Sequence record: AP019559
Length of the DNA stretch: 64,000 nt
Strand: one strand, 5' to 3'
Source of the DNA: Escherichia phage SP15
The position numbers and the translations under genes were made by a program. Below, in pieces: positions 29,634-40,809 of the stretch (position 1 is the stretch's first letter; the number at the start of each line of letters is the position of its first letter). The notes beneath the pieces are model-generated. The model was not told where the DNA came from, made no database searches, and worked only from the letters and a program-made list of their open reading frames with translations.

Positions 29634-29709
29634 TGGAGCGGCTAGAGGGAATCGAACCCTACTCAGCGAGGCTTGGAAGGCCTGCGACACAACCCGTGTG
29701 CTTAACCGC
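29634..29709 (-). tRNA. tRNA-Gly (TCC)
   Basis: Hand fold: loop CTTCCAA; short D-arm. Confidence 0.65.
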
Positions 29710-30185: not shown

Positions 30186-30414
30186 AATTGAAAACTCGCA
30201 GGGTTAGCGAAACCTTCCTCAATTAGCATGTTCTAGAATACTAATCAAGTTATCTCCTATTGCACGCAGCTCAAGACGAGTACGAATTTTCAATTGTGGC
30301 AGCTCTCAGAAACTCTTCTATTCTAGCCCCAGAAGCTTACCCCCGAACGCATGTCGGGAAAGTCTTTCCAAGCGCATCAAATAGCACCGTTACACTTTGA
30401 GCCATTGATGTATC

Positions 30415-30499
30415 AAGGAACAGAAGGATTTGAACCTTCACGAGATAGACCATTTATCTCAACCGCTTTTAAGGTATATTTCTAGGAGTGGATGTTCCT
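30415..30499 (-). other. degenerate tRNA-like element
   Basis: Perfect 7-bp acceptor AGGAACA/TGTTCCT, T-arm GAAGG-TTCAAAT-CCTTC, variable-arm-like hairpin; no canonical D or anticodon arm; no CCA. Confidence 0.4.
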
Positions 30500-30552
30500 A
30501 GTAAACCTATTCGGCAGTCCCGTCTACCAATTCCGGCATATTCCAAGAATTT

Positions 30553-30726
30553 TTATAAACCAGCAGAAGCCTCATTTAAAGCATCAACAATAGCTTCACG
30601 TTGGGTCATTCCATACCCAGTGGAATCTAGGTGTGGCAAATAAGCCATCCATCCCTTATCTGTTTCATGAAGGCATGCTTTAAATTTTTTACCGTCCTTC
30701 ATTGTTACAGTAACTGTTTTGCTCAT
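30553..30726 (-). CDS. hypothetical small protein (57 aa, below ORF-track cutoff)
   Basis: ATG with AAGGAA RBS, fills the gap between tRNA genes. Confidence 0.4.
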   Translation of the reverse strand: MSKTVTVTMKDGKKFKACLHETDKGWMAYLPHLDSTGYGMTQREAIVDALNEASAGL

Positions 30727-30746
30727 AATGATTCCTTATAGTTAAT

Positions 30747-30836
30747 TGGAGGAAGGTAATGGAGTCGAACCATCACCGTATCACTACAGCGGGCTAGTTT
30801 TCAAGACTAGTTGCGTACCACTACGCCCTACCTTCC
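30747..30836 (-). tRNA. tRNA-Ser (TGA), class II
   Basis: Hand fold: loop CTTGAAA, long variable arm. Confidence 0.8.
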
Positions 30837-30843
30837 ATTTGTT

Positions 30844-30934
30844 TGGCGGAAGAGGAGAGATTTGAACTCTCAAGCCGTTTTACCAGTCAGCCACTTTCCA
30901 AGCGGTTTTCGTCGCCAATTCGATTTGCTCTTCC
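30844..30934 (-). tRNA. class II tRNA, anticodon unresolved (possibly Ser GGA)
   Basis: Acceptor GGAAGAG/CTCTTCC and T-arm resemble tRNA-Ser; D/anticodon region does not fold canonically by hand. Confidence 0.4.
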
Positions 30935-31046
30935 AAAAATAAGATGATGCCTCTATCACACCAGGCAGTTACGCCCCGCTGGGATTCGAACCCATTAAAA
31001 CAGCTCAACCGAGATAGTAGGTTTAATTTACTCTGACCATCAAATT

Positions 31047-31123
31047 TGGTGCGTGACAAGGGATTCGAACCCTCAAAACCCGACTTCTAAGGACGGTATG
31101 TATGCCAATTCCATCAATCACGC
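31047..31123 (-). tRNA. tRNA with anticodon TAG (Leu by anticodon) but class I architecture
   Basis: Hand fold: loop CTTAGAA, 5-nt variable loop, discriminator A. Confidence 0.55.
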
Positions 31124-31128
31124 GTATT

Positions 31129-31207
31129 TGGTGGAGGATAACGAATTCGAATCGTTCTGATGTCCTCGGTGCAAGCGAGGTGTCCACTCCCAGCAGACCC
31201 ATCCCCC
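31129..31207 (-). tRNA. tRNA-Ala (TGC)
   Basis: Hand fold: G3-U70 wobble in acceptor, loop CTTGCAC. Confidence 0.7.
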
Positions 31208-31492
31208 AAAATCTTTAGTTTACTAAGGCTATTAGCTCGGCGTAACTACAGCACCTTCGCTTCGAGCGGAAGGAACTACGTCATCTCGCAAACCCGATAC
31301 ACTATTCAGTTGCCGCTGAATCTAGTGGACTAATCTAGAACCTCTCCCGAGTCATAGGGATCGTGCTTTTTGGCAGCCAGTCCTAGGTCGAGCTAATACC
31401 TTAGTGAACTATGATGAGGATTTCTCCTCATCAATTTATATAAACATTATATCAAGAAATTAAGCATTAAGCAACTGAATTTCTTATTTAAT

Positions 31493-31566
31493 TGGTACTC
31501 AGTAGTGGAATCGAACCACTGCAACCACCGTGTAAAGATGGAGTTCTACCATTAAACTAACCGAGC
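31493..31566 (-). tRNA. tRNA-Val (TAC)
   Basis: Hand fold: loop TTTACAC. Confidence 0.7.
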
Positions 31567-31719
31567 AAAAGACGTTCTATAATATAGGCTTCAGTTATAA
31601 GCTCATAAAACCCTGCGAATATCATTGCAATAGTAAAATTATCTATGATTACTATTGGCTCTTTAATTTTTTGAATGATTAAATAAAACCAGATAGTCAT
31701 ATCTGACTTCCTCGTAATT

Positions 31720-31798
31720 TGGTAGATCGCCTGGGACTCGAACCCAGAACCTTCCGATTAAAAGTCGGATGCTACTAAACCTATTGAGCTAGCGACCT
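31720..31798 (-). tRNA. tRNA-Lys (TTT)
   Basis: Hand fold: perfect anticodon stem, loop CTTTTAA. Confidence 0.7.
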
Positions 31799-31987
31799 AT
31801 TAGTAGCCATTATATACTTCTTTAATAGAATGGACTTTTAAGTAAGGATGATTAATCCCAAACTCCGCCATTACTTCTTTTTCATCTTTTCCATAATGTG
31901 CAAGTAAGGATCTTGAGGTATTATTACCTAAACGTTTGTCATTTACTACTAATCGAAATACTTTCATTTCGAAATCCTCTATTAAAA

Positions 31988-32064
31988 TGGAAGCGGGTGC
32001 AGGAATCGAACCTACCTCTTTCTAGCTTATGAGACTAGCGATCTCTACCAGAGATCTAACCCGC
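31988..32064 (-). tRNA. tRNA, anticodon CAT (Met/fMet/Ile2 not resolved)
   Basis: Hand fold: loop CTCATAA; acceptor pairing ambiguous at the 1-72 position. Confidence 0.6.
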
Positions 32065-32071
32065 AATTGTT

Positions 32072-32147
32072 TGGTCAGTGCGGCAGGACTCGAACCTGCG
32101 ACCCGAAGCATCCAAGGCTCCCACGCTACCAACTGCGCTACGCACTG
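32072..32147 (-). tRNA. tRNA-Pro (TGG)
   Basis: Hand fold: perfect acceptor CAGTGCG/CGCACTG, loop CTTGGAT. Confidence 0.8.
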
Positions 32148-32156
32148 TTAATTCTT

Positions 32157-32354
32157 TTATTGTGGGGGGATATTAATAATTCGTCCATCTACACAATAAA
32201 CGGTACTAGGGATTGTACTGTATATGTAGAAATTCTTTATATTACTCTCTCCGCCACAGAAATTTTTAGCAAATTCATACTCTTTATTAATGGTTGAGTC
32301 AAGTTTAAAACAACCAGTAAGTAGGAATACAGATAGCAATAAAACTTTCTTCAT
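32157..32354 (-). CDS. small lipoprotein
   Basis: 65 aa, signal peptide with lipobox 'LLTGC'; early-type promoter upstream. Confidence 0.5.
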   Translation of the reverse strand: MKKVLLLSVFLLTGCFKLDSTINKEYEFAKNFCGGESNIKNFYIYSTIPSTVYCVDGRIINIPPQ

Positions 32355-32564
32355 TTTGCTTTCCTTCTCTTCACTTTATAAAATATATTATACAGAGAAT
32401 TAAGTAAAATAGCAAATGAATTTTTAATAAATTTACTTATTGTGTAGGCCACCTGGAGGCTATGAACCCCACGGCTGACAAAGAAGTTTGCGAGACTTCT
32501 CTTAAAAGCCAGAATAGACCCGCCGATCTATCGGAACCTACATAATAAGTAAACTTTATAGTGT

Positions 32565-32640
32565 CATTCTAGACAGGACTCGAACCTGTTATCACTTGTG
32601 CGGACTTACGAGAACCATTCTTTCACTCGAATCGAACGAG
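32565..32640 (-). other. degenerate tRNA-like element with two T-arm-like hairpins
   Basis: ACAGG-TTCGAGT-CCTGT and CTCG-TTCGATT-CGAG hairpins; no canonical anticodon arm. Confidence 0.35.
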
Positions 32641-32807
32641 CTTCTGCCCTAGCCAAGCTGGTTTCCCCATCAACCACGCTAGAATGTTTGATTGTTTTCA
32701 GTGCAAGAGTCCGAGTCTTGGACACGACCGCTTCGCAAGTACATAGGCAGCTTATCATGAGTCAGCACTTCCGAATTGCTAGCCCCGTGTTCTGCACTGA
32801 AATTTTA

Positions 32808-33155
32808 TTAGTTTAACCGTAAAGTATTATCTACTTCACCATTAATTGTTCGGCATTCCTCTGGGATTGCTGGTGTAGCCTTGTATTCCCACCACTCAGC
32901 ACCATCATATTCCCCACGTTCTAGCCAAGTTCCATCGGCAAACCATACATTACCATAAAGTAATTGTCCACCGTATCCAGAATCATATTCAAAGTCTAGG
33001 TTATTAAGAAACCCCTCAATGTCTTCTTCTGTATAACCTAAAGGTAATACCCAGACTTTTTTGTCCCCATAATACCCAAATTCTATTTTAATACACTTAA
33101 CTTTAGAATTGGTATTTTTTAAGGCGAGTAACAGCTCTTCTTTAGCATTACGCAT
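32808..33155 (-). CDS. hypothetical protein
   Basis: 115 aa, Trp/Tyr/Gly-rich. Confidence 0.5.
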   Translation of the reverse strand: MRNAKEELLLALKNTNSKVKCIKIEFGYYGDKKVWVLPLGYTEEDIEGFLNNLDFEYDSGYGGQLLYGNVWFADGTWLERGEYDGAEWWEYKATPAIPEECRTINGEVDNTLRLN

Positions 33156-33180
33156 AGTATATTCTCATACTGAATTAAGT

Positions 33181-33257
33181 TGGCGCGACCGATGGGATTT
33201 GAACCCACATTCTCTCCCGTGACAGGGGAGTACCATTACCAAGCCAGCCCCGGTCGC
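33181..33257 (-). tRNA. tRNA-Asp (GTC)
   Basis: Hand fold: perfect acceptor GCGACCG/CGGTCGC, loop CTGTCAC. Confidence 0.8.
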
Positions 33258-33266
33258 ATAATTCAT

Positions 33267-33452
33267 TTACTCAGCTTTGAGTTTTTCAATAGCTGCATTA
33301 AGTTCTTTAAGAAACTCTTTTCGTACATTAAGACGATTGAGACTTACTAGTATATCGTGTTTAAGTTCTTCGATGTATTTCTTTTCAACTTCAATATTGT
33401 TGATAGTGCTATCACGATGAACTTCTAGCTGCGCAATTACATTCTTGGACAT
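33267..33452 (-). CDS. small coiled-coil protein
   Basis: 61 aa. Confidence 0.5.
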   Translation of the reverse strand: MSKNVIAQLEVHRDSTINNIEVEKKYIEELKHDILVSLNRLNVRKEFLKELNAAIEKLKAE

Positions 33453-33554
33453 GCTTGTTTCCTCAGTTATTAATGAAAATGGTATCTGTGGCTGAATTCG
33501 ATGTCAGCAATGATAGCTGGTTGGCTACCGGTTTACTTAACTCTACACAGAATT

Positions 33555-33637
33555 TGGCGGGCCGTGTAGGATTCGAACCTACGTTGTCTTTCGACATGGA
33601 TTAACAGTCCACCGCCAAACCGCTTGGCTAACGACCC
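33555..33637 (-). tRNA. class II (long variable arm) tRNA with anticodon GTT (Asn by anticodon), discriminator G
   Basis: Hand fold is clean: D-stem GCCA/TGGC, anticodon stem GTGGA/TCCAT, loop CTGTTAA, variable hairpin GTC-GAAA-GAC, T-arm GTAGG-TTCGAAT-CCTAC. Confidence 0.6.
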
Positions 33638-33789
33638 TAAATTTATATTGCTGACTAGGATTTTCACCTAGACGGAGTTAGCACCGTAGCGTGTAGCGGC
33701 ATACCTCTCCAAACCGTGCCTCATCTTTCAATTACGGAGACAGTGTTCCTACGCGTGCCTGAATTGATTCAACAATTCTTCCAGCAAAT

Positions 33790-33865
33790 TGGACGACCGC
33801 ATGAGATTTGAACTCACATAAAAAGGATTTGCAATCCTTCGCCTAAGCCCTTCAGCCAACGGTCG
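33790..33865 (-). tRNA. tRNA-Cys (GCA)
   Basis: Hand fold: perfect anticodon stem AAGGA/TCCTT, loop TTGCAAA. Confidence 0.75.
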
Positions 33866-33934
33866 GTTTATCTTGTTCTGTCATGTTGCTTCTCCAGTTC
33901 AATTTATGTAATTATTATACAGAACTTTTGGAAA

Positions 33935-34207
33935 CTAAGCAACTACATTTTTTAAGAATTTGATGCCTTTCTTTTTCTTCTTATATTTCCACGTTAATGG
34001 ATTCTGTCGATTATGAACGCTTGAGATCTTTGTCTCGTCAAAGTTCTTCAATATCATGTAATCACAGGATAATTGTTCTAGTAGAATGTGATCACCGTCA
34101 AAAGCGTATACATAAGGCTGTTGACTAACACGATAATGATAGACTTTGTTAATTCTACGTTTCAGCGACTTATCAGCGCAGTAAATAAAGAAGTTTTCAG
34201 GATGCAT
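33935..34207 (-). CDS. hypothetical basic protein
   Basis: Track ORF 33935..34222 (TTG start) trimmed to the ATG at 34207 with AAGGAG RBS. Confidence 0.5.
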   Translation of the reverse strand: MHPENFFIYCADKSLKRRINKVYHYRVSQQPYVYAFDGDHILLEQLSCDYMILKNFDETKISSVHNRQNPLTWKYKKKKKGIKFLKNVVA

Positions 34208-34224
34208 CAGCAGCTCCTTCAATT

Positions 34225-34299
34225 TGGTGCACCCTGTTCGTATCGAACGAACCTCTCAAGCTCTTCAGGCAAGCGCTAATCCATCTCAGCTAAAGGTGC
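34225..34299 (-). tRNA. tRNA-Phe (GAA)
   Basis: Hand fold: U8-A9, D-stem GCTG/TAGC, loop CTGAAGA; two U-U mismatches in anticodon stem. Confidence 0.55.
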
Positions 34300-34305
34300 A
34301 AATTT

Positions 34306-34382
34306 TGGCAAACCTACTAGGACTCGAACCTAGACCGTACGGTTTTGGAGACCGACATGCTGTCCAGTAACACTCTAGGAAT
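34306..34382 (-). tRNA. tRNA-Trp (CCA)
   Basis: Hand fold: loop CTCCAAA, perfect T-stem; acceptor has two U-U mismatches. Confidence 0.55.
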
Positions 34383-34390
34383 GCAGAAAT

Positions 34391-34467
34391 TGGCGTCCTG
34401 TGCGGGGATCGAACCCGCAAATCCTACCTTGAAAGGGTAGTGACTTTACCAGTTTGTCTAACAGGAC
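34391..34467 (-). tRNA. tRNA-Glu (TTC)
   Basis: Hand fold: all four stems perfect, loop CTTTCAA. Confidence 0.85.
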
Positions 34468-34474
34468 TTAAATT

Positions 34475-34565
34475 TGGTGTTGGATGATGGAGTCGAACCA
34501 CCCGAGACCCTTCCGAGTCGGCAGATTTACAGTCTGCTTCGCTACCTCTACGATACTAATCCAAC
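34475..34565 (-). tRNA. tRNA-Tyr (GTA), class II
   Basis: Hand fold: perfect acceptor GTTGGAT/ATCCAAC, anticodon arm GCAGA-CTGTAAA-TCTGC, long variable arm. Confidence 0.75.
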
Positions 34566-34630
34566 ATATTTAGAAGTATTCAAAAATTCTCATTTAAACA
34601 CTTTTAAATATGTTTTCAAATTAGGTAACT

Positions 34631-34687
34631 ATTATACCAAGTTTTAAGGCACTGAGCAAGTCAAATTTTAAAGAACTTGCTCAGTGC
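34631..34687 (-). promoter_or_regulatory. early promoter for the tRNA cluster overlapping a 13-bp perfect inverted repeat
   Basis: Minus strand TTGCTC, 17 nt, TATAAT (34631-34659); inverted repeat GCACTGAGCAAGT 34649-34661 / 34675-34687. Confidence 0.55.
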
Positions 34688-34695
34688 TATATTAG

Positions 34696-34971
34696 TTAGT
34701 CGAACTTAGGAGTGACAGTTAAGGAGAACGGAAGTTCGAAAACTTCTTCACCCTCATTACTAACGGTAACTACACGACCTTTAAGTTCAGACATTAAAAT
34801 ATCAATATCAGCTTTTGCATCTGGAGCCATACCAGCTTCAACACATTTAGCTTTAACTTCCGGCAGAAGTTCGACATCGTAGAAATAAAGCCATTCAATC
34901 TCACCTTCCCAGCCTTCCCAGGATTTACAGATTGCACTTTCAATACCAGTTGCTACAACACGATTTTGCAT
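34696..34971 (-). CDS. hypothetical acidic protein
   Basis: 91 aa. Confidence 0.5.
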   Translation of the reverse strand: MQNRVVATGIESAICKSWEGWEGEIEWLYFYDVELLPEVKAKCVEAGMAPDAKADIDILMSELKGRVVTVSNEGEEVFELPFSLTVTPKFD

Positions 34972-35061
34972 TCGTTAACTCCTTCATCAATTTATACAAC
35001 TATTATATCAGAAATTTAAAGCAAAAGGCAAGTACATTTTTAAAAATTCTGTTTGGAGGAG

Positions 35062-35268
35062 CTAAACTCCAGATTCTTCAGCTAAGTCTAGGCTAATAAG
35101 AGTTATAGCCATAATTGCTGCACCGTGTTCTTTTTCTCCGGTGTTTTTAGCAGAGTCTATAATAGTCTTAATCTGTTCGTAATAGCCTTTTACTTCTTGT
35201 TCAATACCTGCCTCGGCTATCATGCCTTTAGTCATGATTCGTTGCATAGTAATTTCACGGTTAGCCAT
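35062..35268 (-). CDS. hypothetical protein
   Basis: 68 aa. Confidence 0.5.
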   Translation of the reverse strand: MANREITMQRIMTKGMIAEAGIEQEVKGYYEQIKTIIDSAKNTGEKEHGAAIMAITLISLDLAEESGV

Positions 35269-35428
35269 GATGTTTCTCCAGCTTCATTTTTAATAGTTTA
35301 CAAATGAAATCAACGTCTTCATCTGTACCTAGATCTCTATCTTCAAGAGTTGCCTTGAAGTTTTTAGTCAATTCCATGAGGATAACTTCTCTAGAACGAC
35401 GTGTTGGCGGAGGTGGATGTCTATACAT
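35261..35428 (-). CDS. hypothetical small protein (55 aa, below ORF-track cutoff)
   Basis: ATG with AAGGAAATAAG RBS; 8-nt overlap with the downstream gene. Confidence 0.35.
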   Translation of the reverse strand: MYRHPPPPTRRSREVILMELTKNFKATLEDRDLGTDEDVDFICKLLKMKLEKHHG

Positions 35429-35443
35429 CTTATTTCCTTAGTT

Positions 35444-35520
35444 TGGTAGGGGTGGTGGGATTCGAACCCACAAAACCTGAATTTTAAGTCCAGTACCTAT
35501 GCCAATTCGATTACACCCCC
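35444..35520 (-). tRNA. tRNA with anticodon TAA (Leu by anticodon) but class I architecture
   Basis: Hand fold: good acceptor and T-stem, loop CTTAAAA, 5-nt variable loop, discriminator A. Confidence 0.55.
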
Positions 35521-35527
35521 GTGTAGT

Positions 35528-35716
35528 TTAGTCAATTACTTTTGAGGCTTCAAGGTAGTCGATATAGTGTATGTTTTCTACCGTAATCATATAATCTGTC
35601 ACTTTATCCATAGCTTGGGCTTCAGAGGTAGCTCTGGCTAACCTATATCCTTTTTTATATTCATCCGGGTATTCTCTATCTTGGATAAACACAACATAAA
35701 CTATATATAGATCCAT
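35528..35716 (-). CDS. hypothetical protein
   Basis: 62 aa. Confidence 0.5.
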   Translation of the reverse strand: MDLYIVYVVFIQDREYPDEYKKGYRLARATSEAQAMDKVTDYMITVENIHYIDYLEASKVID

Positions 35717-35735
35717 TTGTGACCTCTATTTAATT

Positions 35736-35813
35736 TGGTGGCTCCCCGAGGATTCGAACCTACGTACCTTCCGGTTATGAGCCGGGTGCTCATACCATAT
35801 GAGCTTGAGAACC
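35736..35813 (-). tRNA. tRNA, anticodon CAT (third copy)
   Basis: Hand fold: perfect D-stem GCTC/GAGC, loop CTCATAA; weak T-stem. Confidence 0.5.
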
Positions 35814-35819
35814 AGAATT

Positions 35820-35908
35820 TGGCGGAAGAAGCGGGAATCGAACCCACAAGGCTATATTTCAAACCGACAGATTAGCAATCTGCTGCAATACCGTTATGCT
35901 ATTCTTCC
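35820..35908 (-). tRNA. tRNA-Ser (GCT), class II
   Basis: Hand fold: perfect acceptor GGAAGAA/TTCTTCC, loop TTGCTAA, long variable arm. Confidence 0.75.
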
Positions 35909-35929
35909 GAATTTATAAGATATATTATA

Positions 35930-36448
35930 TTAGAAATTTAGCTTCATAGCAAGAAAATTTTTCAAGTTTTCGGTAGACATCTCATCCACATCTACGGGAG
36001 AAACAAAGCCGTTTAATTTTCTAGCAAATTTTTCACCCGCAGGATCATTATCTCCGACAGCTACCAATTTAAAAGGTAGTAATTTCAGTTGCTTTAATAA
36101 CGCTTTTCCTGGAGAAGAACCCAACATTGCTAGGGCTGGATAACCAGCATTATGTAACGCAACTGCCTTAAATACAGATTCAGCAATCAATACTACTTTT
36201 TCATCTCCATTGAGAGTTTCTAGTCCCCATACACACTGGGTAGTAGAATAAGTAAAGTATTTAGCTTCAAAGGGGCACTTACCATGACCTTTTGGAGCAG
36301 AAGGATTATAAGTTTGATAGCCCCTCAACATCCCAGAGAAGTCATACAACGGGACTGTTAGCCATCCTTCCGGACTTAACCAGCAATGATATTTATCTGT
36401 ATCAAATCCTCTAGATAAGAGGTGCTGTGTTAGCTCATCAACATTCAT
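35930..36448 (-). CDS. TOPRIM-domain protein (small primase or nuclease-like)
   Basis: Track ORF 35930..36499 trimmed to the ATG at 36448 (AAGAGGAA RBS); conserved Glu in 'LIAESVF' and 'VGDNDPAGE' DxD motif. Confidence 0.5.
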   Translation of the reverse strand: MNVDELTQHLLSRGFDTDKYHCWLSPEGWLTVPLYDFSGMLRGYQTYNPSAPKGHGKCPFEAKYFTYSTTQCVWGLETLNGDEKVVLIAESVFKAVALHNAGYPALAMLGSSPGKALLKQLKLLPFKLVAVGDNDPAGEKFARKLNGFVSPVDVDEMSTENLKNFLAMKLNF

Positions 36449-36623
36449 ATTTGGTTCCTCTTTCAAATTTATAGATATATTATACAGAGAATTTAGCATT
36501 CAAGCAATCAAATTTTTTAACTTTTTAGAGGAAAATCATAGGGCACTTAAGGATAGCAGATAAGTGGTGAGGACCAAAATTTGTGACCCCACTAAAAATT
36601 CAGGGGCAATTTTTAAAGACCCC

Positions 36624-36652
36624 TTGACATTTTCGCTGGGGTAGTGTAAAGT
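36624..36652 (+). promoter_or_regulatory. sigma70-type promoter for the plus-strand three-gene module
   Basis: Consensus TTGACA, 17-nt spacer, TAAAGT. Confidence 0.55.
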
Positions 36653-36713
36653 ATATGTTATGGATGAGTGATCAAAGAGACACACATTTTCTATATACTA
36701 GGAGGTGTCAAAA

Positions 36714-37697
36714 ATGACAGAAGAAGTAGCTAAGAGTCCTGAGACCGTCGCTAGCGTTGCAGCAGAACTGCACCGTCACGAGGAATCAGATAAGAAAAAG
36801 TGGGAGAAGGTCAGAGCCTACGAAGAAAAACATCGTGAACACGATGATGAAGAAGATGACGATGAACATTGTCATAAATATGGAAAACATAAAATGCAAG
36901 AACCAGTAAACGTATTTACTAGTGGCTTCCCTGGCCTACTGGGTGGTTACCCAGCAAACGCAGGTGCTTTCGGTGGTGAAGGTATGGGACTATTCGGAGC
37001 TATCCTAATCGGTGCTCTATTAACAGGCGGATTCGGTGGTTTCGGTGGATTCGGTGGACGTGGTGTAGTTGGTGATGGTACCGCAGTTGATGCAGTACTT
37101 CAGAACCAAGATACCGCTAGTATTCTAGCAGCTATTAACACTACTCGTACAGAAGCTAACCAGGGTACTGGAGCTGTTTTAAGCGCAGTTAACAATGGGT
37201 TTAGCCAGACATCCCAAAACCAGAGCCGTGATACTCAGTCTGTACTAACTACGATCTATGGTACAGGTGCTAATCTGTCTAATCAGATCTGTCAGGAAAC
37301 TCGCAACGTTATTCAGGGTCAGTTCGATCTTTCTCGCCAGATTGATCAATCTTTCGCAGCTAATCAGATAGCTCGTGCACAAGATAAGTTTGATTCTGCA
37401 CAGATCGCTTTCCAGCAGACTTTACAAACTAATAACCAGTTTGCCGCTGTTCAGGCTCAGATGTGTGCTAACCAGAACTCTCTGGAACGTCAGATCGCTG
37501 AATGTTGCTGTGAACTTCAGACTGCTATCGCTGGTGTAACTACTGCTCGTATTCAGGATGAGTTAGATGCATGTCGCCTACGTGAAGCAATCGCTGCGGG
37601 TAACGGTGCTAACGGTCAGGTAATTAATCAAATCGCTGTAAGTCTTGGTGCTATCACTCAGACTCTGGCTGGTCTGCAGGCTAAACTGCCGGCTTAA
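36714..37697 (+). CDS. glycine-zipper membrane protein with long Q/N/A/T-rich helical domain
   Basis: Track ORF starts at a GTG at 36705; ATG at 36714 has AGGAGG 8 nt upstream; 'GGFGGFGGFGG' hydrophobic Gly-rich segment; 'CCC' near the C-terminus; host-like codon usage. Confidence 0.6.
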   Translation: MTEEVAKSPETVASVAAELHRHEESDKKKWEKVRAYEEKHREHDDEEDDDEHCHKYGKHKMQEPVNVFTSGFPGLLGGYPANAGAFGGEGMGLFGAILIGALLTGGFGGFGGFGGRGVVGDGTAVDAVLQNQDTASILAAINTTRTEANQGTGAVLSAVNNGFSQTSQNQSRDTQSVLTTIYGTGANLSNQICQETRNVIQGQFDLSRQIDQSFAANQIARAQDKFDSAQIAFQQTLQTNNQFAAVQAQMCANQNSLERQIAECCCELQTAIAGVTTARIQDELDACRLREAIAAGNGANGQVINQIAVSLGAITQTLAGLQAKLPA

Positions 37698-37718
37698 TAT
37701 TAAGGGGAGGAGCCCATT

Positions 37719-38135
37719 ATGAGTAAATATGGTTTTGTAAATAACGGACTTAATCAAAGTATGGGCTCCCAGCAGCCCATTCCGGGTCTGGATAACCCCT
37801 ACTTACAACAATTGCAACAGCGTTTAGCAGAAGCGCAACAGATGCAACAACAACTCCAGCAAAACCCTGGAAGTGTGAGTCCTATGCAAATGATGCAGCA
37901 AATGAGCGGGCAGTCGCAAATGCCTCAACAAATGCAGCAACAGATGCCGCAGCAGCAAGTTCAGCAGCAAACCCAACAACCGCAGGTTTCTGCGGAAGGA
38001 CAGGCAGTACTAGCCCTTTTCGAAGACTTCACAAAGACAGAGGATGGGAAGCAGCTTGTATCACTTATGGGTAAGTTTAATAGCTTCTGCCAAAGCCAAG
38101 TTGCAAAAGCTCAAAATGGTGGTAATAACTCCTAA
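37719..38135 (+). CDS. Gln-rich low-complexity protein
   Basis: 138 aa with poly-Q/M stretch; RBS GGGGAGGAG. Confidence 0.55.
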   Translation: MSKYGFVNNGLNQSMGSQQPIPGLDNPYLQQLQQRLAEAQQMQQQLQQNPGSVSPMQMMQQMSGQSQMPQQMQQQMPQQQVQQQTQQPQVSAEGQAVLALFEDFTKTEDGKQLVSLMGKFNSFCQSQVAKAQNGGNNS

Positions 38136-38144
38136 GGAGAAATT

Positions 38145-38339
38145 ATGTGTTGCAGAAAACCTGTTTCGTGCTGCCCAATGCCTGTAGCACGTTGTTGCTC
38201 TCCAGCAATGTTTACACAAATACCGGCGTTCAATCCCTTTGCCTTTAAGCCTACTCTTATCCTGCCCCCTAGAGTAGATTTTCAGTCAAGATTGGCCTCC
38301 CGTATGGGTGGTTGCTGTACACCGAGAGTGTGGTTCTGA
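38145..38339 (+). CDS. Cys-doublet-rich small protein
   Basis: 64 aa with four CC doublets; RBS AAGGAGA. Confidence 0.5.
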   Translation: MCCRKPVSCCPMPVARCCSPAMFTQIPAFNPFAFKPTLILPPRVDFQSRLASRMGGCCTPRVWF

Positions 38340-38354
38340 AGAACCAAACAATAA

Positions 38355-38390
38355 AGCCCCTAGTCGAAAGACTTAGGGGCTTTTCTGTAT
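38355..38390 (+). terminator. Rho-independent terminator
   Basis: 11-bp stem with one bulge around a GAAA loop, followed by TTTTCTGTATTT. Confidence 0.65.
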
Positions 38391-38394
38391 TTAA

Positions 38395-38436
38395 GATAAA
38401 AGAAAAGCCCTGCGCTCTCCAGGGAACGCAGGGCTT
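38395..38436 (-). terminator. Rho-independent terminator for the SPFH gene
   Basis: 10-bp stem AAGCCCTGCG/CGCAGGGCTT; on the minus strand followed by TTTTCTTTT. Confidence 0.65.
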
Positions 38437-38459
38437 ACTTCAGATGTTACATGCGGATA

Positions 38460-39407
38460 TTATTTATTACGCATATCCATGATCATTTGACCATCGTAGC
38501 CAGTACCTACCACAGTCTGTGGTACACCACCTTGATATTTCTGAGCACGAATCATTTCGACTTCCAGTTGTTTCCAACGAATCATCTCAGGAGTAATGGT
38601 ACGTTGCAGTGCGGCGTTAGCTTCAGCTTCTTTCTTAGCTGCGTACAGTTTAGCATCTGCGTCACGTTCATTAGCGATAGCTTGGTTGTTGCGAGCTTCA
38701 CGATCTGCTTCTGCTTGTTTAACTTTTTGCTGTGCTTCCTGTTCAACACGAGCTAATTCAGCTTTAGCAGCATTAACCTGTTCTTCACGAACTTTGGTAT
38801 TCTGTACCTGTTCCATGATTACCGGTGGCAAAGTAATATCCTGAAGGAATACCTGCTTAACTGTGTAACCATATGGGCGTGCATACTCTTCAACTTCCTG
38901 TTGAATTGCAGTTTGCAATTGAGCCTGAATTTTAGCATCAAACAAATCTTGTGCTTTAGGTACAGACTTACCAAACTCACGAATAGTAGACAGTAATTTT
39001 TCAGTTACATATTTGTCTAACGCTTGATCCTGAGTACCTGCGTTAATACGGTTAATTGGTGCCTTAGAACCATCAAACTGCAACATAACAGTCAGGTCAA
39101 CAGTGGATTTAAACTTATCCTGGCTAGGAACCTGAAGTTTATCTAATTTTACAGCAATATCTTTTGTACTAAAAGTGTCGAAAGATGCAAATGGGTTTAC
39201 AAGATGGAAACCTGGTAATACTGGGTTAGGATCTACTTTACCCAGAAATGTTTGGGTTTTAACCGTACCATCAGAAACAATAGTATATGAATTAAAGGCT
39301 AGAATCAAGCCTGCTAAACCAACTACAGCACCAATACCCCAACGTTTAATAGTACGAATTACTTTCTGCTCAGAAGTCAGTTCTTTCATATTTTTAGTAT
39401 TAAACAT
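38460..39407 (-). CDS. SPFH/band-7 (stomatin/prohibitin/HflK-C-like) membrane protein
   Basis: N-terminal transmembrane helix, central SPFH-like region, C-terminal A/E/Q-rich coiled-coil; host-like codon usage. Confidence 0.7.
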   Translation of the reverse strand: MFNTKNMKELTSEQKVIRTIKRWGIGAVVGLAGLILAFNSYTIVSDGTVKTQTFLGKVDPNPVLPGFHLVNPFASFDTFSTKDIAVKLDKLQVPSQDKFKSTVDLTVMLQFDGSKAPINRINAGTQDQALDKYVTEKLLSTIREFGKSVPKAQDLFDAKIQAQLQTAIQQEVEEYARPYGYTVKQVFLQDITLPPVIMEQVQNTKVREEQVNAAKAELARVEQEAQQKVKQAEADREARNNQAIANERDADAKLYAAKKEAEANAALQRTITPEMIRWKQLEVEMIRAQKYQGGVPQTVVGTGYDGQMIMDMRNK

Positions 39408-39441
39408 ATATTTCCTTTGTTTTAGTTACAGTTAATAAAAT

Positions 39442-39516
39442 TGGCCGAGGTGACAGGATTCGAACCTGCATAAAGGAATTTAGAAGACTCCTGCCTCTCC
39501 CTTAGACTACACCCCG
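39442..39516 (-). tRNA. tRNA-Arg (TCT)
   Basis: Hand fold: acceptor CGGGGTG/CACCTCG, loop CTTCTAA, discriminator G; isolated from the main cluster. Confidence 0.7.
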
Positions 39517-40018
39517 TTTAAATATTTTTAAGAACTCTCGTAAAAACTCTTAAAAATACAGACGATACCGGGAGAGTCATAAGTCTCACTCATTAAGTAT
39601 TTCAAGACAAAATACAGTAACGTCTATTATTTTCCAGTTTAAGTCAGGGTGACTTAGTGGTTAGGTCCTGCGGTATATTGAGGACTCGGTTAGGCTTGGG
39701 GTCATGACTTCCCGCCTTTTGCTGCTACTCAACAGGAGTTATCGCGAATTACCTGTGCTATTGTGCACCATTAGTGACATCTCTCATGTCAGCATTTCCC
39801 ACTTTGTGGATAGCTTGAAAAACTACTCCGATATGGAGAAAAAACTTCACTATCCTAGAATACCTTCTAAAGTTCTTCTTTAGCCTGGACATAGTTAAAT
39901 CGTAATAAAACTATTCAGCAGACTGGTTGGTTAGCCTGGAACCAACTACCGCGTGGTTTAGGCAGTGCGCAACTAACCTCGGAAGCTTTTACGTTAAAAG
40001 CATCAGTTATCCAGTTCT

Positions 40019-40090
40019 TACCGACCGTAGGATTCGAACCTATATCTTCCACCAGTTACGGCTTGATAATACCAATTATACTAGGACGGC
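40019..40090 (-). other. degenerate tRNA-like element inside an ~800-bp non-coding region
   Basis: Acceptor-like pairing GCCGTCC/GGTCGGT and T-arm TAGG-TTCGAAT-CCTA; no canonical anticodon arm. Confidence 0.35.
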
Positions 40091-40328
40091 AGTGTTACTA
40101 CATAAGTGATTTCCACACCCCACTATTTATAAATTAGAGAAGAGTTTAGGGGAGAGGTTTCAGACGCCTCATTTTACACGTTCTAGCCACTAACCGGGAT
40201 TGCCGCCCCCTGTGTACTAGTTTTACAACTAACCTACCGACTCTATTCAACGAATCTTAGTGCTCGACGCATCTTACATTAAGACAAGTTCAGCGTAATC
40301 GGCTCGCTGTTCTCTAATTTATGAATAT

Positions 40329-40357
40329 ATTATACAGAATTTATAAGCATTTAGCAA
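40329..40357 (-). promoter_or_regulatory. T5-type early promoter reading into the non-coding leader, tRNA-Arg and the SPFH gene
   Basis: Minus strand TTGCTA, 17 nt, TATAAT. Confidence 0.55.
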
Positions 40358-40365
40358 ATAAATTT

Positions 40366-40809
40366 TTAATTAAATTCACCAGCAATCTGAGCAGCAGTAC
40401 CACCATCATAACGCCCAGGAAATTCTTCCTTAATCGCTTTCATCAGCATACCTTTTGTAATTCCAGGGTTTAGCTTAACTAATTCTGCAAAGTATTTACG
40501 AATCTCAGTATCAGATAACTGAGGGGGCAGATACTCCTGCAACCACTTATTTAGAATGTACTCATACTGAGCGGACTGCAAGCTATAACTATCAAGATCT
40601 TGACCATGAAGTTTAGCTTTCATCTGGTTAATGCTTTTTAGTTGAGCTTTGAGATAAGACACAAATTGTTCAGAAGTGATGAAATCTTTATTAATACGCT
40701 GAAGATCCCCGATTATGGTCTGATAGCTTTTAGCGACTTCTTTATCAGAACCATTAAACTTAGAATCCTGCAAAGCTCTACGCAAAACATCTAAAATATT
40801 CTCTTCCAT
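40366..40809 (-). CDS. hypothetical protein (possible GatB/YqeY-like domain)
   Basis: 147-aa ORF; weak similarity impression at the C-terminus. Confidence 0.45.
   Translation of the reverse strand: MEENILDVLRRALQDSKFNGSDKEVAKSYQTIIGDLQRINKDFITSEQFVSYLKAQLKSINQMKAKLHGQDLDSYSLQSAQYEYILNKWLQEYLPPQLSDTEIRKYFAELVKLNPGITKGMLMKAIKEEFPGRYDGGTAAQIAGEFN

What the first reader, a model, noticed from the sequence alone, without database searches (positions are those of the whole stretch)
30415..40090. Degenerate tRNA-like elements retaining acceptor and T-arm
At least four elements (30415-30499, the T-arm hairpin near 30972-30993, 32565-32640 and 40019-40090) keep a TTCRANN T-loop hairpin and often a 6-7-bp acceptor-like pairing but lack a canonical D/anticodon domain and CCA. 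They could be decaying tRNA genes, processing signals for RNase P/Z within the polycistronic tRNA transcript, or small structured RNAs. Unassigned gaps at 30186-30410 and 31210-31440 may hold further small RNAs.
Basis: seen in the sequence. Interest (0 to 1): 0.55.

Follow-up and report, generated by a model that had tools for sequence, protein, structure and literature searches.

The report
Known phage T5 tRNA-like stable RNAs
The odd "broken tRNAs" in this T5-like phage are the conserved tRNA-shaped non-coding RNAs already annotated in phage T5 as stable RNAs of unknown function (RNA1, RNA2, RNAX), plus one unannotated relative; they are maintained by selection, not decaying, but what they do is still unknown.

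Summary
The window is a T5/BF23-like phage whose minus-strand tRNA cluster spans 28.5-40.3 kb. All four elements are real. Five TTCRANN hairpins lie outside tRNA genes in the cluster, far more than chance predicts.

Three elements are 96-99% identical to features annotated in T5 GenBank AY543070:
- RNA1 (30404-30547)
- RNA2 (32562-32686)
- a module inside RNAX (40019-40090)

The two "gaps" hold T5 RNAIII, RNAI and RNA2H. The fourth element (30935-31046) is an unannotated spacer RNA found in 247 phage records.

RNA1, RNA2 and the RNAX module are full cloverleaf mimics. Their anticodon loop is replaced by an extended or stunted hairpin, and none encodes CCA.

Comparison across Tequinta-, Epseptima- and Sugarlandvirus shows 9-17 compensatory base pairs per element, against 0-3 in slid controls. 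They are therefore selected structured RNAs, not pseudogenes or ordinary tRNAs.

RNA2 also has homologues in three ~165-kb, T4-sized phage genomes or contigs (one an annotated T4 relative).

Most likely they are cut out by the host tRNA-processing enzymes and act through the replaced anticodon domain. The target is unknown.

Verdict: already known; function open.

The parts
30415..30545 (-). RNA1 tRNA-like core (the T5 RNA1 feature maps to 30404-30547). Layout: acceptor 30545-30539 / 30422-30416; Leu-type D arm 30536-30520; anticodon stem 30518-30514 / 30466-30462, enclosing a 47-nt insertion whose apical loop ACAUCCAC is invariant in all but one of 22 sequences (30495-30488; T5 itself has ACAUCCGC); long variable arm 30460-30442; T arm 30439-30423; discriminator U at 30415; no CCA.
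   Evidence: 97.9% identical to T5 RNA1. Rfam tRNA 25.9 bits with a 47-nt insertion. In 22 sequences, 95.1% of cells pair and 11 pairs are compensatory, against 1-2 in slid controls; RNAalifold predicts the same helices. Found in 491 phage records.
32562..32686 (-). RNA2 tRNA-like RNA. It has an 8-bp acceptor (CAUUCUAG/CUAGAAUG), a 5-bp D-like arm and an anticodon-like stem. That stem opens into an inner domain of about 45 nt containing a second T-loop hairpin (32625-32641) and the conserved core GAAUGGUUCNCGUAANUCC. The T arm is 32573-32589. The 3' end reads G-ACA instead of CCA.
   Evidence: 96% identical to T5 RNA2. In 18 sequences, 97.7% of cells pair and 17 pairs are compensatory, against 0-3 in slid controls. 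Found in 481 phage records. Model R1 finds homologues in Acj9 (58 bits), L096 (103 bits) and L180 (53 bits).
40019..40090 (-). tRNA-like module inside RNAX. Acceptor GCCGUCC/GGUCGGU (with a U.U at 5:68 in this phage), canonical D arm, stunted 3-bp/6-nt 'anticodon' hairpin, T arm 40027-40043, discriminator A, no CCA.
   Evidence: Rfam tRNA 28.3 bits against a gathering score of 29. In 13 sequences, 85.8% of cells pair and 9 pairs are compensatory, against 1-3 in slid controls. Annotated 'tRNA-OTHER' or 'tRNA-Sec(tca)' in some Epseptimavirus records.
39517..40320 (-). RNAX: a non-coding leader of about 800 nt running from promoter P16-17 (about 40311-40368) to tRNA-Arg.
   Evidence: 91-98% identical to T5 RNAX, which is annotated 'stable RNA with unknown functions'. 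Four or five blocks remain alignable with Sugarlandvirus.
30935..31046 (-). Unannotated spacer RNA between tRNA-Leu(UAG) and tRNA-Ser(GGA). Terminal pairing UGAUG/CAUCA, a T-loop hairpin at 30979-30995, and a following 7-bp hairpin.
   Evidence: Found in 247 phage records, always between tRNA-Leu and tRNA-Ser. It carries no feature in BF23 record AJ604530, and T5 has the hegC gene at this position. Four compensatory pairs separate the two clades. The single-sequence fold is not better than shuffles.
30297..30403 (-). RNAI: 107 nt, acceptor-like stem GGCUC/GAGCU followed by G-CCA.
   Evidence: 99% identical to T5 RNAI. Alignment and fold.
30187..30292 (-). RNAIII: 106 nt, a 12-bp terminal stem plus three hairpins (cloverleaf-like four-way junction).
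   Evidence: 99% identical to T5 RNAIII. Fold z-score -2.9. Nearly invariant in 21 loci.
31227..31398 (-). RNA2H: 172 nt with a 10-bp terminal stem.
   Evidence: 95% identical to T5 RNA2H. Fold.
32441..32543 (-). RNAIV: 103 nt, terminal stem plus three hairpins.
   Evidence: 98% identical to T5 RNAIV. Fold z-score -3.0.
33480..33552 (-). RNA3: 73-nt tRNA-like RNA. 6-bp acceptor plus U.U, a 6-nt 'anticodon' loop, a T-like arm with an 8-nt loop, and an encoded A-CCA.
   Evidence: 100% identical to T5 RNA3, annotated 'putative tRNA-like RNA'. Fold z-score -3.0.

Best explanation
The elements are genuine, selectively maintained, tRNA-derived non-coding RNAs of T5-like phages. They correspond to T5 RNA1, RNA2 and the tRNA-like module of RNAX, plus one unannotated spacer RNA. 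They are not tRNAs and not pseudogenes.

Shown here:
- Each keeps the upper half of a tRNA: acceptor stem and T arm, and for three of the four (not the spacer RNA) also a D arm.
- The decoding end differs. RNA1 has a 47-nt extended arm with an apical loop that is all but invariant. RNA2 has a nested domain carrying a second T-loop. The RNAX module has a short hairpin of variable length.
- These helices are kept by compensatory substitutions across genera. RNA2 is also kept across phage families.

Inferred, not shown:
- The RNAs lie on the tRNA strand, downstream of the promoters annotated in T5, so they are probably co-transcribed with the phage tRNAs.
- Their acceptor/T-arm minihelix probably makes them substrates for the host tRNA-maturation enzymes. 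These are RNase P at the 5' end, and 3' trimming with possible CCA addition, as for the T4 tRNAs that lack an encoded CCA. Excision would give compact species protected by their paired ends, the 'stable RNAs' of the T5 literature.
- They cannot decode. The conserved replacement domain probably carries the function, by binding a host or phage factor that normally handles tRNA.
- They are accessory and dispensable in the laboratory.

The molecular target is unknown.
For: Identity and synteny with the annotated T5/BF23 stable RNAs.

Excess of T-loop hairpins on the tRNA strand only.

Covariation:
- RNA1: 11 compensatory pairs, 95% of cells paired, against 40-50% when partners are slid. RNAalifold predicts the same fold independently.
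- RNA2: 17 compensatory pairs, 97.7% paired.
- RNAX module: 9 compensatory pairs.
- Further compensated variants in L174.

Conservation:
- The RNA1 apical loop, D loop and variable arm are invariant or nearly so.
- DNA-level conservation against Sugarlandvirus is comparable to that of tRNAs.
- The elements occur in 481-491 phage records, and the spacer RNA in 247.
- RNA2 homologues lie in or beside the tRNA clusters of Acj9 and L180, and stand alone in L096.

Other points:
- Every neighbouring T5 'stable RNA' also pairs its two ends.
- Dispensability: T5 st0 lacks RNAX and RNA3. Deletions in the tRNA region are described as non-essential in PMC11464382 and PMC12483538, both citing Glukhov et al. 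2018.
- An analogous pair of stable RNAs sits at the end of the T4 tRNA cluster, and T4 rnaC has a canonical T arm.
Against: - No expression, end-mapping or RNase P data could be examined here. 'Stable RNA' rests on GenBank notes and on a 1982 paper known only from its citation.
- The first acceptor pair is U.U or G.U in RNA1 and the RNAX module. The window's RNAX module also has a U.U at 5:68. Both could weaken recognition by RNase P.
- The spacer RNA has weak support: in effect one divergence event, an invariant terminal stem, and a single-sequence fold no better than shuffles.
- No binding partner or complementary target was found.
Confidence: 0.8

Rival explanations
1. They are decaying tRNA pseudogenes, relics of duplicated or disrupted tRNA genes that drift neutrally and only happen to keep a T arm.
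For: - The tRNA region is a deletion and recombination hotspot.
- Ob_P carries a chimera of the RNAX module with the tRNA-Lys 3' end.
- CCA is lost, and RNA2 ends in ACA, one mutation from CCA.
- RNA1 clearly derives from a tRNA-Leu-type gene.
Against: - There are 9-17 compensatory pairs per element.
- The sequences are retained in about 490 records across three genera, at tRNA-like conservation.
- The inserted, non-tRNA parts contain the most invariant motifs: ACAUCCAC in RNA1 and GAAUGGUUCNCGUAANUCC in RNA2.
- RNA2 is conserved in unrelated T4-like phages.
Confidence: 0.03
2. They are purely cis-acting punctuation: tRNA-like RNase P/RNase Z sites that cut the polycistronic transcript and so set the ends and stability of neighbouring mRNAs and tRNAs. 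The excised RNA itself has no function.
For: - RNA1 starts 7 nt after the stop codon of the upstream small ORF (30553-30726).
- The elements sit between ORFs, tRNAs and promoters.
- An acceptor/T-arm minihelix is enough for RNase P (established knowledge).
- Several elements directly abut one another, for example RNA1-RNAI-RNAIII-tRNA-His.
Against: - A processing site needs only the acceptor and T arm. Here the D arm, variable arm and distal inserted domains are conserved and covary too.
- RNA2 occurs in L096 with no tRNA gene within 10 kb.
- The T5 annotation records accumulating stable species.
Confidence: 0.12
3. They are functional but unusual tRNAs: for example RNA1 as an intron-containing tRNA-Leu, or the RNAX module as a suppressor or Sec-like tRNA, as some genome annotations state.
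For: - Some pipelines label them tRNA-Leu, tRNA-OTHER or tRNA-Sec(tca).
- Removing 40 nt from RNA1 in this phage would leave ACUGC-CUUAAAA-GCGGU, a perfect Leu(UAA) anticodon arm (read).
- The Rfam scores fall just below threshold.
Against: - The putative anticodon loops are not conserved. The RNA1 stretch reads CUUAAAA, CUCAUAAA or CCGAAAAC in close relatives. Column 76 of that stretch covaries as part of a helix.
- The RNAX 'anticodon' hairpin varies from a 3-bp stem with a 6-nt loop to a long hairpin.
- There is no CCA.
- No splicing system for 40-nt introns is known in E. coli (established knowledge).
- ARAGORN rejects all four.
Confidence: 0.03
4. They are tRNA decoys or anti-defence RNAs. 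They keep the tRNA body that host tRNA-targeting immune nucleases recognise, but lack a cleavable anticodon loop. They would therefore titrate those nucleases or other tRNA-binding host factors. Candidates include PrrC/RloC, PARIS AriB and retron-Eco7 PtuAB. This is one specific version of the function left open in the best explanation.
For: - T5 tRNA-Lys and tRNA-Tyr are documented counter-defence tRNAs (PMC11464382; PMC10644984).
- The elements keep the body and alter exactly the anticodon arm.
- They are accessory and dispensable in laboratory hosts.
- They are conserved in several tRNA-rich phage lineages.
Against: - There is no direct evidence, and nothing was found in the literature.
- In the PARIS complementation only tRNA-Lys was needed. 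The fragment that rescued (31885-32870) held tRNA-Pro, fMet, Lys and Val, and the other fragments tested had no effect.
- The conserved inserted loops suggest a specific new interaction rather than simple mimicry.
Confidence: 0.15
5. The conservation acts on the DNA rather than the RNA, for example as homing-endonuclease target sites or recombination sequences.
For: - HNH homing-endonuclease genes are interspersed in the cluster.
- In T5, hegC occupies exactly the site of the spacer element.
- T-arm repeats mediate deletions, as in Ob_P.
Against: - Compensatory changes preserve base pairing rather than sequence.
- G.U pairs are tolerated on one strand only.
- All the elements share the orientation of the tRNAs.
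Confidence: 0.03

Closest known systems
Bacteriophage T5 / BF23 'stable RNAs' RNA1, RNA2, RNA3, RNAX, RNAI, RNAIII, RNAIV and RNA2H (GenBank AY543070, AY692264, AJ604530; Ksenzenko et al. 1982, BBA 697:235)
   Same: These are the same genes. They are 95-100% identical, in the same order and on the same strand between the same tRNAs. RNA1 and RNA2 are annotated 'tRNA-like stable RNA with unknown functions'.
   Different: The spacer element 30935-31046 and the unit 32687-32807 carry no feature in those records. In T5 the spacer site holds the hegC gene. RNAX is annotated only as one 719-nt RNA, with no mention of the 72-nt tRNA-like module.
Phage T4 species 1 and species 2 RNAs (rnaC, rnaD)
   Same: They are small stable RNAs of unknown function at the end of a phage tRNA cluster, on the tRNA strand. 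rnaC has a canonical T arm (CCGGG-UUCGAAU-CCCGG), paired ends and long inserted hairpins. The architecture is the same and the open question is equally old.
   Different: They are not detectably homologous. The RNA2 covariance model does not hit rnaC or rnaD. Only a short GGUUGAGAUAYGG similarity to the Klebsiella-phage RNA2 was seen.
tmRNA tRNA-like domain
   Same: An acceptor stem and T arm without an anticodon arm, processed by the tRNA machinery (established knowledge).
   Different: There is no tag reading frame and no pseudoknots. ARAGORN and Rfam find no tmRNA. There is no encoded CCA or G3.U70 alanine identity. The sizes are much smaller.
Bacterial Y RNA YrlA and other tRNA mimics (mascRNA, viral tRNA-like structures)
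   Same: These are non-coding RNAs that copy the tRNA elbow and are handled by tRNA enzymes (own knowledge).
   Different: In YrlA the RNA termini form the Ro-binding stem, at the anticodon-equivalent end of the tRNA-like module, not at an acceptor stem. No Rfam family other than tRNA or tRNA-Sec matched the four elements meaningfully (the few other sub-threshold hits scored 9-14 bits), even at E-values up to 10.

Membership tests
Canonical tRNA (Rfam RF00005 / ARAGORN) | Scores at or above the family gathering threshold (29 bits), or is called by ARAGORN | tested here: not met
   RNAX module 28.3 bits. RNA1 25.9 bits, and only with a 47-nt insertion. RNA2 and the spacer element have no tRNA hit. 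ARAGORN calls none of them.
Canonical tRNA (Rfam RF00005 / ARAGORN) | 5-bp anticodon stem closed by a conserved 7-nt loop (U33, anticodon, purine 37) | tested here: not met
   RNA1 has a 47-nt extended arm. RNA2 has a nested domain of about 45 nt. The RNAX module has a 3-4-bp stem and a 6-nt loop whose sequence and length vary between relatives.
Canonical tRNA (Rfam RF00005 / ARAGORN) | Acceptor stem plus T arm with a TTCRANN loop; D arm with GG | tested here: met
   This is what makes the elements tRNA-like.
Canonical tRNA (Rfam RF00005 / ARAGORN) | Encoded 3' CCA, as in the genuine tRNA genes of this phage | tested here: not met
   The 3' sequences are UUGA (RNA1), GACA (RNA2) and AAGA (RNAX module). 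The EH5 and Sugarland copies of RNA2 do end in N-CCA.
T5 stable RNAs RNA1 / RNA2 / RNAX | Sequence identity and synteny with the annotated T5/BF23 features | tested here: met
   Identities of 97.9%, 96.0% and 91-98%, with the same neighbours.
T5 stable RNAs RNA1 / RNA2 / RNAX | Accumulates as a discrete stable RNA in infected cells | not testable with these tools
   This rests on the GenBank notes and on Ksenzenko et al. 1982, seen only as a citation.
tmRNA | tRNA-Ala-like domain plus a tag reading frame; detected by ARAGORN or Rfam | tested here: not met
   No tmRNA is reported.
T4 species 1 RNA (rnaC) | Detectable homology in sequence and structure | tested here: not met
   Model R1 (RNA2) gives no hit on rnaC or rnaD at E-values up to 10.
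T4 species 1 RNA (rnaC) | Stable RNA gene in a phage tRNA cluster, with a T arm and paired termini but no anticodon | tested here: met
   for T4. for this window.
RNA2 family (defined here) | tRNA-like scaffold with a nested T-loop hairpin and the core GAAUGGUUCNCGUAANUCC | tested here: met
   Model R1 scores: window 155 bits, Sugarlandvirus 118, L096 103, Acj9 58, L180 53.

The most novel reading that the evidence does not exclude
The tRNA-like RNAs, above all the RNA2 family, may be trans-acting tRNA mimics used in the conflict over the host tRNA pool. RNA2 is shared by T5-like phages and several T4-sized (~165-kb) phages and carries a second, nested T-loop/D-loop-like 'elbow'. They could act as decoys for tRNA-targeting defence nucleases, or as RNA partners of the phage GatB/YqeY-like tRNA-binding protein encoded next to them in three lineages. 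That would finally give a function to the T5 (and by analogy T4) 'stable RNAs', which have lacked one since the 1970s-80s.
Probability: 0.15. Interest if true: 0.8.

Novelty: already known. Interest (0 to 1): 0.4.

Why it matters
Large lytic phages such as T5 and T4 carry, inside their tRNA clusters, stable tRNA-shaped RNAs whose role has been unexplained for about 45 years. Phage tRNAs are now known to be weapons against tRNA-cleaving bacterial immunity. Non-decoding tRNA mimics under strong selection are therefore obvious candidates for a related role.

This work adds no new kind of element. It does show that the elements are under RNA-level selection. It defines their folds and invariant loops, which are the places to mutate. 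It shows that RNA2 crosses phage families. It also flags unannotated members, and the annotation errors these elements cause ('tRNA-Sec', 'tRNA-OTHER', spurious ORFs).

Tried and rejected
- Ordinary tRNAs, tmRNA or any other Rfam family: rejected.
- RNA1 as an intron-containing tRNA-Leu(UAA): rejected. The pseudo-anticodon loop is not conserved and overlaps a covarying helix.
- RNAX module as a Sec or opal-suppressor tRNA, as some records annotate it: rejected. The hairpin is variable and has a 6-nt loop.
- Base-pairing target for the RNA1 apical loop within the window: none beyond chance.
- Homology of RNA2 to T4 rnaC or rnaD: not detected with the covariance model.
- RNA1 outside T5-like phages: an IMG/VR pattern scan gave only T5-like contigs plus chance hits.
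- RNA2 core in bacterial genomes: four pattern hits, of which only one phage-like 167-kb contig is real.
- YqeY-like neighbour as a consistent partner. It is present beside RNAX in the window, near the RNA2-like element in L096, and near the one in L180. The window and L180 Pfam scores fall below the gathering cut-off. It is absent from the 2.4-kb Acj9 locus. This remains only a lead.
- Literature on function: nothing found beyond annotations and papers on deletion mutants.
- Single-sequence folding is uninformative for RNA2, the RNAX module and the spacer element (z-scores -0.9, -0.3 and -0.1). Only the comparative analysis carries weight there.

Full report
**What the window is**

ARAGORN finds 23 tRNA genes, all on the minus strand between 28.5 and 39.5 kb. 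Rfam adds one more. Megablast places the region in T5-like phages (Demerecviridae): 636 records match, with best identities of 94-98%. The T5 record AY543070, its st0 deletion derivative AY692264 and the BF23 tRNA-region record AJ604530 annotate more than tRNAs here. They also list a series of misc_RNA features: RNAIII, RNAI, RNA1, RNA2H, RNAIV, RNA2, RNA3 and RNAX. The notes read 'stable RNA with unknown functions' or 'tRNA-like stable RNA with unknown functions'.

**Mapping the finding onto T5**

I used BLAST to place the T5 features on the window.

| T5 feature | Window coordinates | Identity | Relation to the finding |
|---|---|---|---|
| RNAX | 39517 to about 40320 | 91-98% | contains element 4 (40019-40090) |
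| RNAIII | 30187-30292 | 99% | first 'unassigned gap' |
| RNAI | 30297-30403 | 99% | first 'unassigned gap' |
| RNA2H | 31227-31398 | 95% | second 'unassigned gap' |

Element 2 lies in a 112-nt spacer (30935-31046) between tRNA-Leu(UAG) and tRNA-Ser(GGA). This spacer carries no feature in the BF23 record. In T5 the same site is occupied by the homing-endonuclease gene hegC. So three of the four elements and both gaps are already-annotated T5 RNAs.

A scan for hairpins with a stem of at least 4 bp and a TTCRANN loop finds 30 on the minus strand. Of these, 23 lie in tRNAs. Five lie outside tRNAs but inside the cluster: 40027, 32625, 32573, 30979 and 30423. Only three occur anywhere else in the window on either strand. 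Shuffled sequence gives 7.4 per 128 kb.

Rfam at relaxed thresholds gives sub-threshold tRNA hits, against a gathering score of 29 bits:
- 28.3 bits for 40019-40090
- 25.9 bits for 30415-30545, which needs a 47-nt insertion in the anticodon arm

ARAGORN calls none of the four. None has an encoded CCA, whereas the genuine tRNAs read here do.

**Anatomy**

RNA1 (30415-30545) is a class-II, tRNA-Leu-like cloverleaf:
- a 6-bp acceptor stem plus a U.U
- a D arm reading GGAAUUGGUAGAC
- a 5-bp anticodon stem that continues into a two-helix extension ending in the 8-nt loop ACAUCCAC
- a 6-bp variable arm
- a canonical T arm and discriminator U

RNA2 (32562-32686) has an 8-bp acceptor, a 5-bp D-like arm with a GGGG loop, and an anticodon-like stem. 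That stem opens into a domain of about 45 nt. The domain contains a second T-loop hairpin and the motif GAAUGGUUCNCGUAANUCC. A 4-5-nt variable loop and a canonical T arm follow.

The RNAX module (40019-40090) is a 72-nt cloverleaf with good acceptor, D and T arms. Its 'anticodon' hairpin is only 3 bp with a 6-nt loop.

The spacer element pairs its ends (UGAUG/CAUCA). It has a central T-loop hairpin followed by a 7-bp hairpin.

**Are they selected RNAs or decaying genes?**

I collected homologues from several sources:
- 20 T5-like IMG/VR contigs
- annotated genomes of Epseptimavirus (bastian, S147, EH5, 26175IV, YZU-L1, Ob_P)
- annotated genomes of Sugarlandvirus (Sugarland, AmPh_EK80)

Each of the three main elements occurs in 481-491 phage records, at identities down to about 75%.

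Pair counts on the structures I specified:

| Element | Sequences | Cells paired | Pairs changed on both sides | Same measure, slid controls |
|---|---|---|---|---|
| RNA1 | 22 | 95.1% | 11 | 1-2 (40-50% paired) |
| RNA2 | 18 | 97.7% | 17 | 0-3 |
| RNAX module | 13 | 85.8% | 9 | 1-3 |

RNAalifold independently recovers the same helices for RNA1 and RNA2.

Some examples make the pattern concrete:
- The RNA1 acceptor GGAAUA/UGUUCC becomes GAAGUA/UGCUUC, and then AUGCCG/CGGGGU (a G.G at the third pair) in Klebsiella phages.
- The RNA2 acceptor AUUCUAG/CUAGAAU becomes UACGGGG/UCCCGUA.
- The U.U at position 5:68 of the RNAX module in this window is an A-U in T5 and a U-A in BF23.

The most invariant stretches are in the non-tRNA insertions. 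Against Sugarlandvirus, almost the only DNA in this 13-kb region that still aligns is the following: tRNAs, promoters, a few coding pieces, RNA1, RNA2, the spacer element and blocks of RNAX. This excludes neutral decay.

Support for the spacer element is weaker. It has four compensatory pairs that come from essentially one split, an invariant terminal stem, and a single-sequence fold no better than shuffles.

**Beyond T5-like phages**

A BLAST hit of RNA2 in Acinetobacter phage Acj9, a relative of T4, lies directly after its tRNA-Gly and under a 'hypothetical protein' ORF. A pattern scan of IMG/VR and a covariance model built from the RNA2 alignment gave the following:
- A full-length homologue in a 164-kb contig: L096, 103 bits, with a fully compensated acceptor GACUUUG/CAAAGUC.
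- Acj9 at 58 bits.
- One real hit from the scan of bacterial genomes: L180, a 167-kb phage-like contig, 53 bits. It sits next to a tRNA(cta) in a 14-tRNA cluster.

RNA2 is thus a cross-family phage RNA. T4's own stable RNAs, rnaC and rnaD, occupy the analogous position, and rnaC has a canonical T arm. The model does not detect them, however. They are analogues, not demonstrable homologues. RNA1 was found only in T5-like contigs.

**How it most likely works**

Shown: these are tRNA-shaped RNAs that cannot decode and are under purifying selection. They lie on the tRNA strand, between the promoters and tRNAs annotated in T5.

Inferred from established tRNA biology:
- The acceptor/T-arm minihelix should recruit RNase P and the 3' maturation enzymes. 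E. coli RNase BN plus the CCA-adding enzyme mature the T4 tRNAs that lack an encoded CCA.
- Excision would release compact RNAs with paired ends.

This fits a wider pattern. Every neighbouring T5 'stable RNA' also has a terminal helix:
- RNAI: GGCUC...GAGCU-G-CCA
- RNAIII: 12 bp
- RNAIV: 8-9 bp
- RNA2H: 10 bp
- RNA3: 6 bp plus A-CCA
- the unannotated unit 32687-32807: 11 bp

The conserved replacement of the anticodon domain argues that the excised RNA acts in trans through that domain. The RNAs are accessory. The viable T5 st0 strain lacks RNAX and RNA3. Deletions in this region are described as non-essential (PMC11464382, PMC12483538).

The function is not known. A decoy or anti-defence role is attractive, because T5 tRNA-Lys and tRNA-Tyr neutralise PARIS and retron Eco7. 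No evidence for it was found.

One lead came up. A GatB/YqeY-like ORF lies next to a tRNA-like RNA in three places:
- the window (40366-40809, just upstream of RNAX)
- L096
- L180

Two of the three Pfam scores fall below the curated cut-off, and Acj9 lacks such an ORF in the stretch examined.

**Rivals**

- Pseudogenes are rejected by the covariation.
- Pure processing punctuation is possible as part of the story. It does not explain why the distal domains are conserved, nor the stand-alone RNA2 in L096.
- Unusual functional tRNAs (the Leu-with-intron reading, or the Sec/suppressor reading in some annotations) are rejected. The pseudo-anticodon loops are not conserved, and one overlaps a covarying helix.
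- DNA-level conservation is rejected, because the changes preserve pairing on one strand.

**Verdict**

The finding rediscovers the T5 tRNA-like stable RNAs. It is a real feature and already known, and its function is still open.

New here:
- RNA-level covariation evidence and defined folds
- the tRNA-like module within RNAX
- two unannotated structured units (30935-31046 and 32687-32807)
- the cross-family RNA2 family

Noticed in passing
window 29634-29709 (-), 30845-30934 (-), 35736-35813 (-): ARAGORN misses three genuine phage tRNAs. They are tRNA-Gly(UCC), 100% identical to T5; the BF23-type tRNA-Ser(GGA); and tRNA-Ile2(CAU), 97% identical to T5. Rfam places the first two only weakly under tRNA-Sec (30.9 and 19.7 bits), and the third at 40 bits.
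   Followed up: partly
window 32687-32807 (-): The 121-nt stretch between the T5.067-like ORF and RNA2 carries no feature in the T5 or BF23 records. It is 97.5-100% conserved in 20 T5-like loci. It folds into an 11-bp terminal stem plus three hairpins (z-score -2.7), so it is probably another stable cloverleaf-like RNA.
   Followed up: partly
window 40366-40809 (-); L096 3005-3508 (+); L180 6131-6583 (-): GatB/YqeY-like ORFs sit next to tRNA-like RNAs in three phage lineages: RNAX in the window, and RNA2-like elements in L096 and L180. Pfam scores are 25.4, 58.6 and 22.7 bits against a cut-off of 27. No such ORF is in the 2.4-kb Acj9 locus. This protein is a candidate partner but remains untested.
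   Followed up: partly
L089 (Obesumbacterium phage Ob_P) 12524-12614: Here the RNAX tRNA-like module is fused at its T arm to the 3' end of tRNA-Lys (…CCCAGGCGGTCTACCA). A natural deletion has removed most of the tRNA cluster by recombination between T arms. RNA1 and RNAI are retained.
   Followed up: partly
window 31047-31123 (-): The BF23-type tRNA-Leu(UAG) is only 77 nt and has no long variable arm, whereas T5's is 85 nt. The BF23 record says its amber derivative is an effective suppressor. A class-I-shaped tRNA-Leu is unusual for bacteria.
   Followed up: no
L095 (Acinetobacter phage Acj9) 1151-1381; Sugarland L088 12356-12958; several Epseptimavirus records: These RNAs cause annotation artefacts. 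'Hypothetical protein' ORFs are drawn over the RNA2-like and RNAX elements. The RNAX module is labelled 'tRNA-Sec(tca)' or 'tRNA-OTHER'. RNA1 is labelled 'tRNA-Leu' in JLBYU40.
   Followed up: partly
L180 7053-7127 (-): The phage-like 167-kb contig carries a tRNA with anticodon CUA, which ARAGORN calls 'tRNA-Pyl'. It could be an amber suppressor. It lies immediately upstream of the contig's RNA2-like element.
   Followed up: no
window 30297-30403 (-) and 33480-33552 (-): RNAI and RNA3 differ from RNA1, RNA2 and the RNAX module in that they do encode a 3' N-CCA after an acceptor-like stem. In principle they could be aminoacylation or CCA-enzyme substrates. Divergent RNAI homologues exist in Epseptimavirus (nhmmer E-value about 1e-6).
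   Followed up: partly
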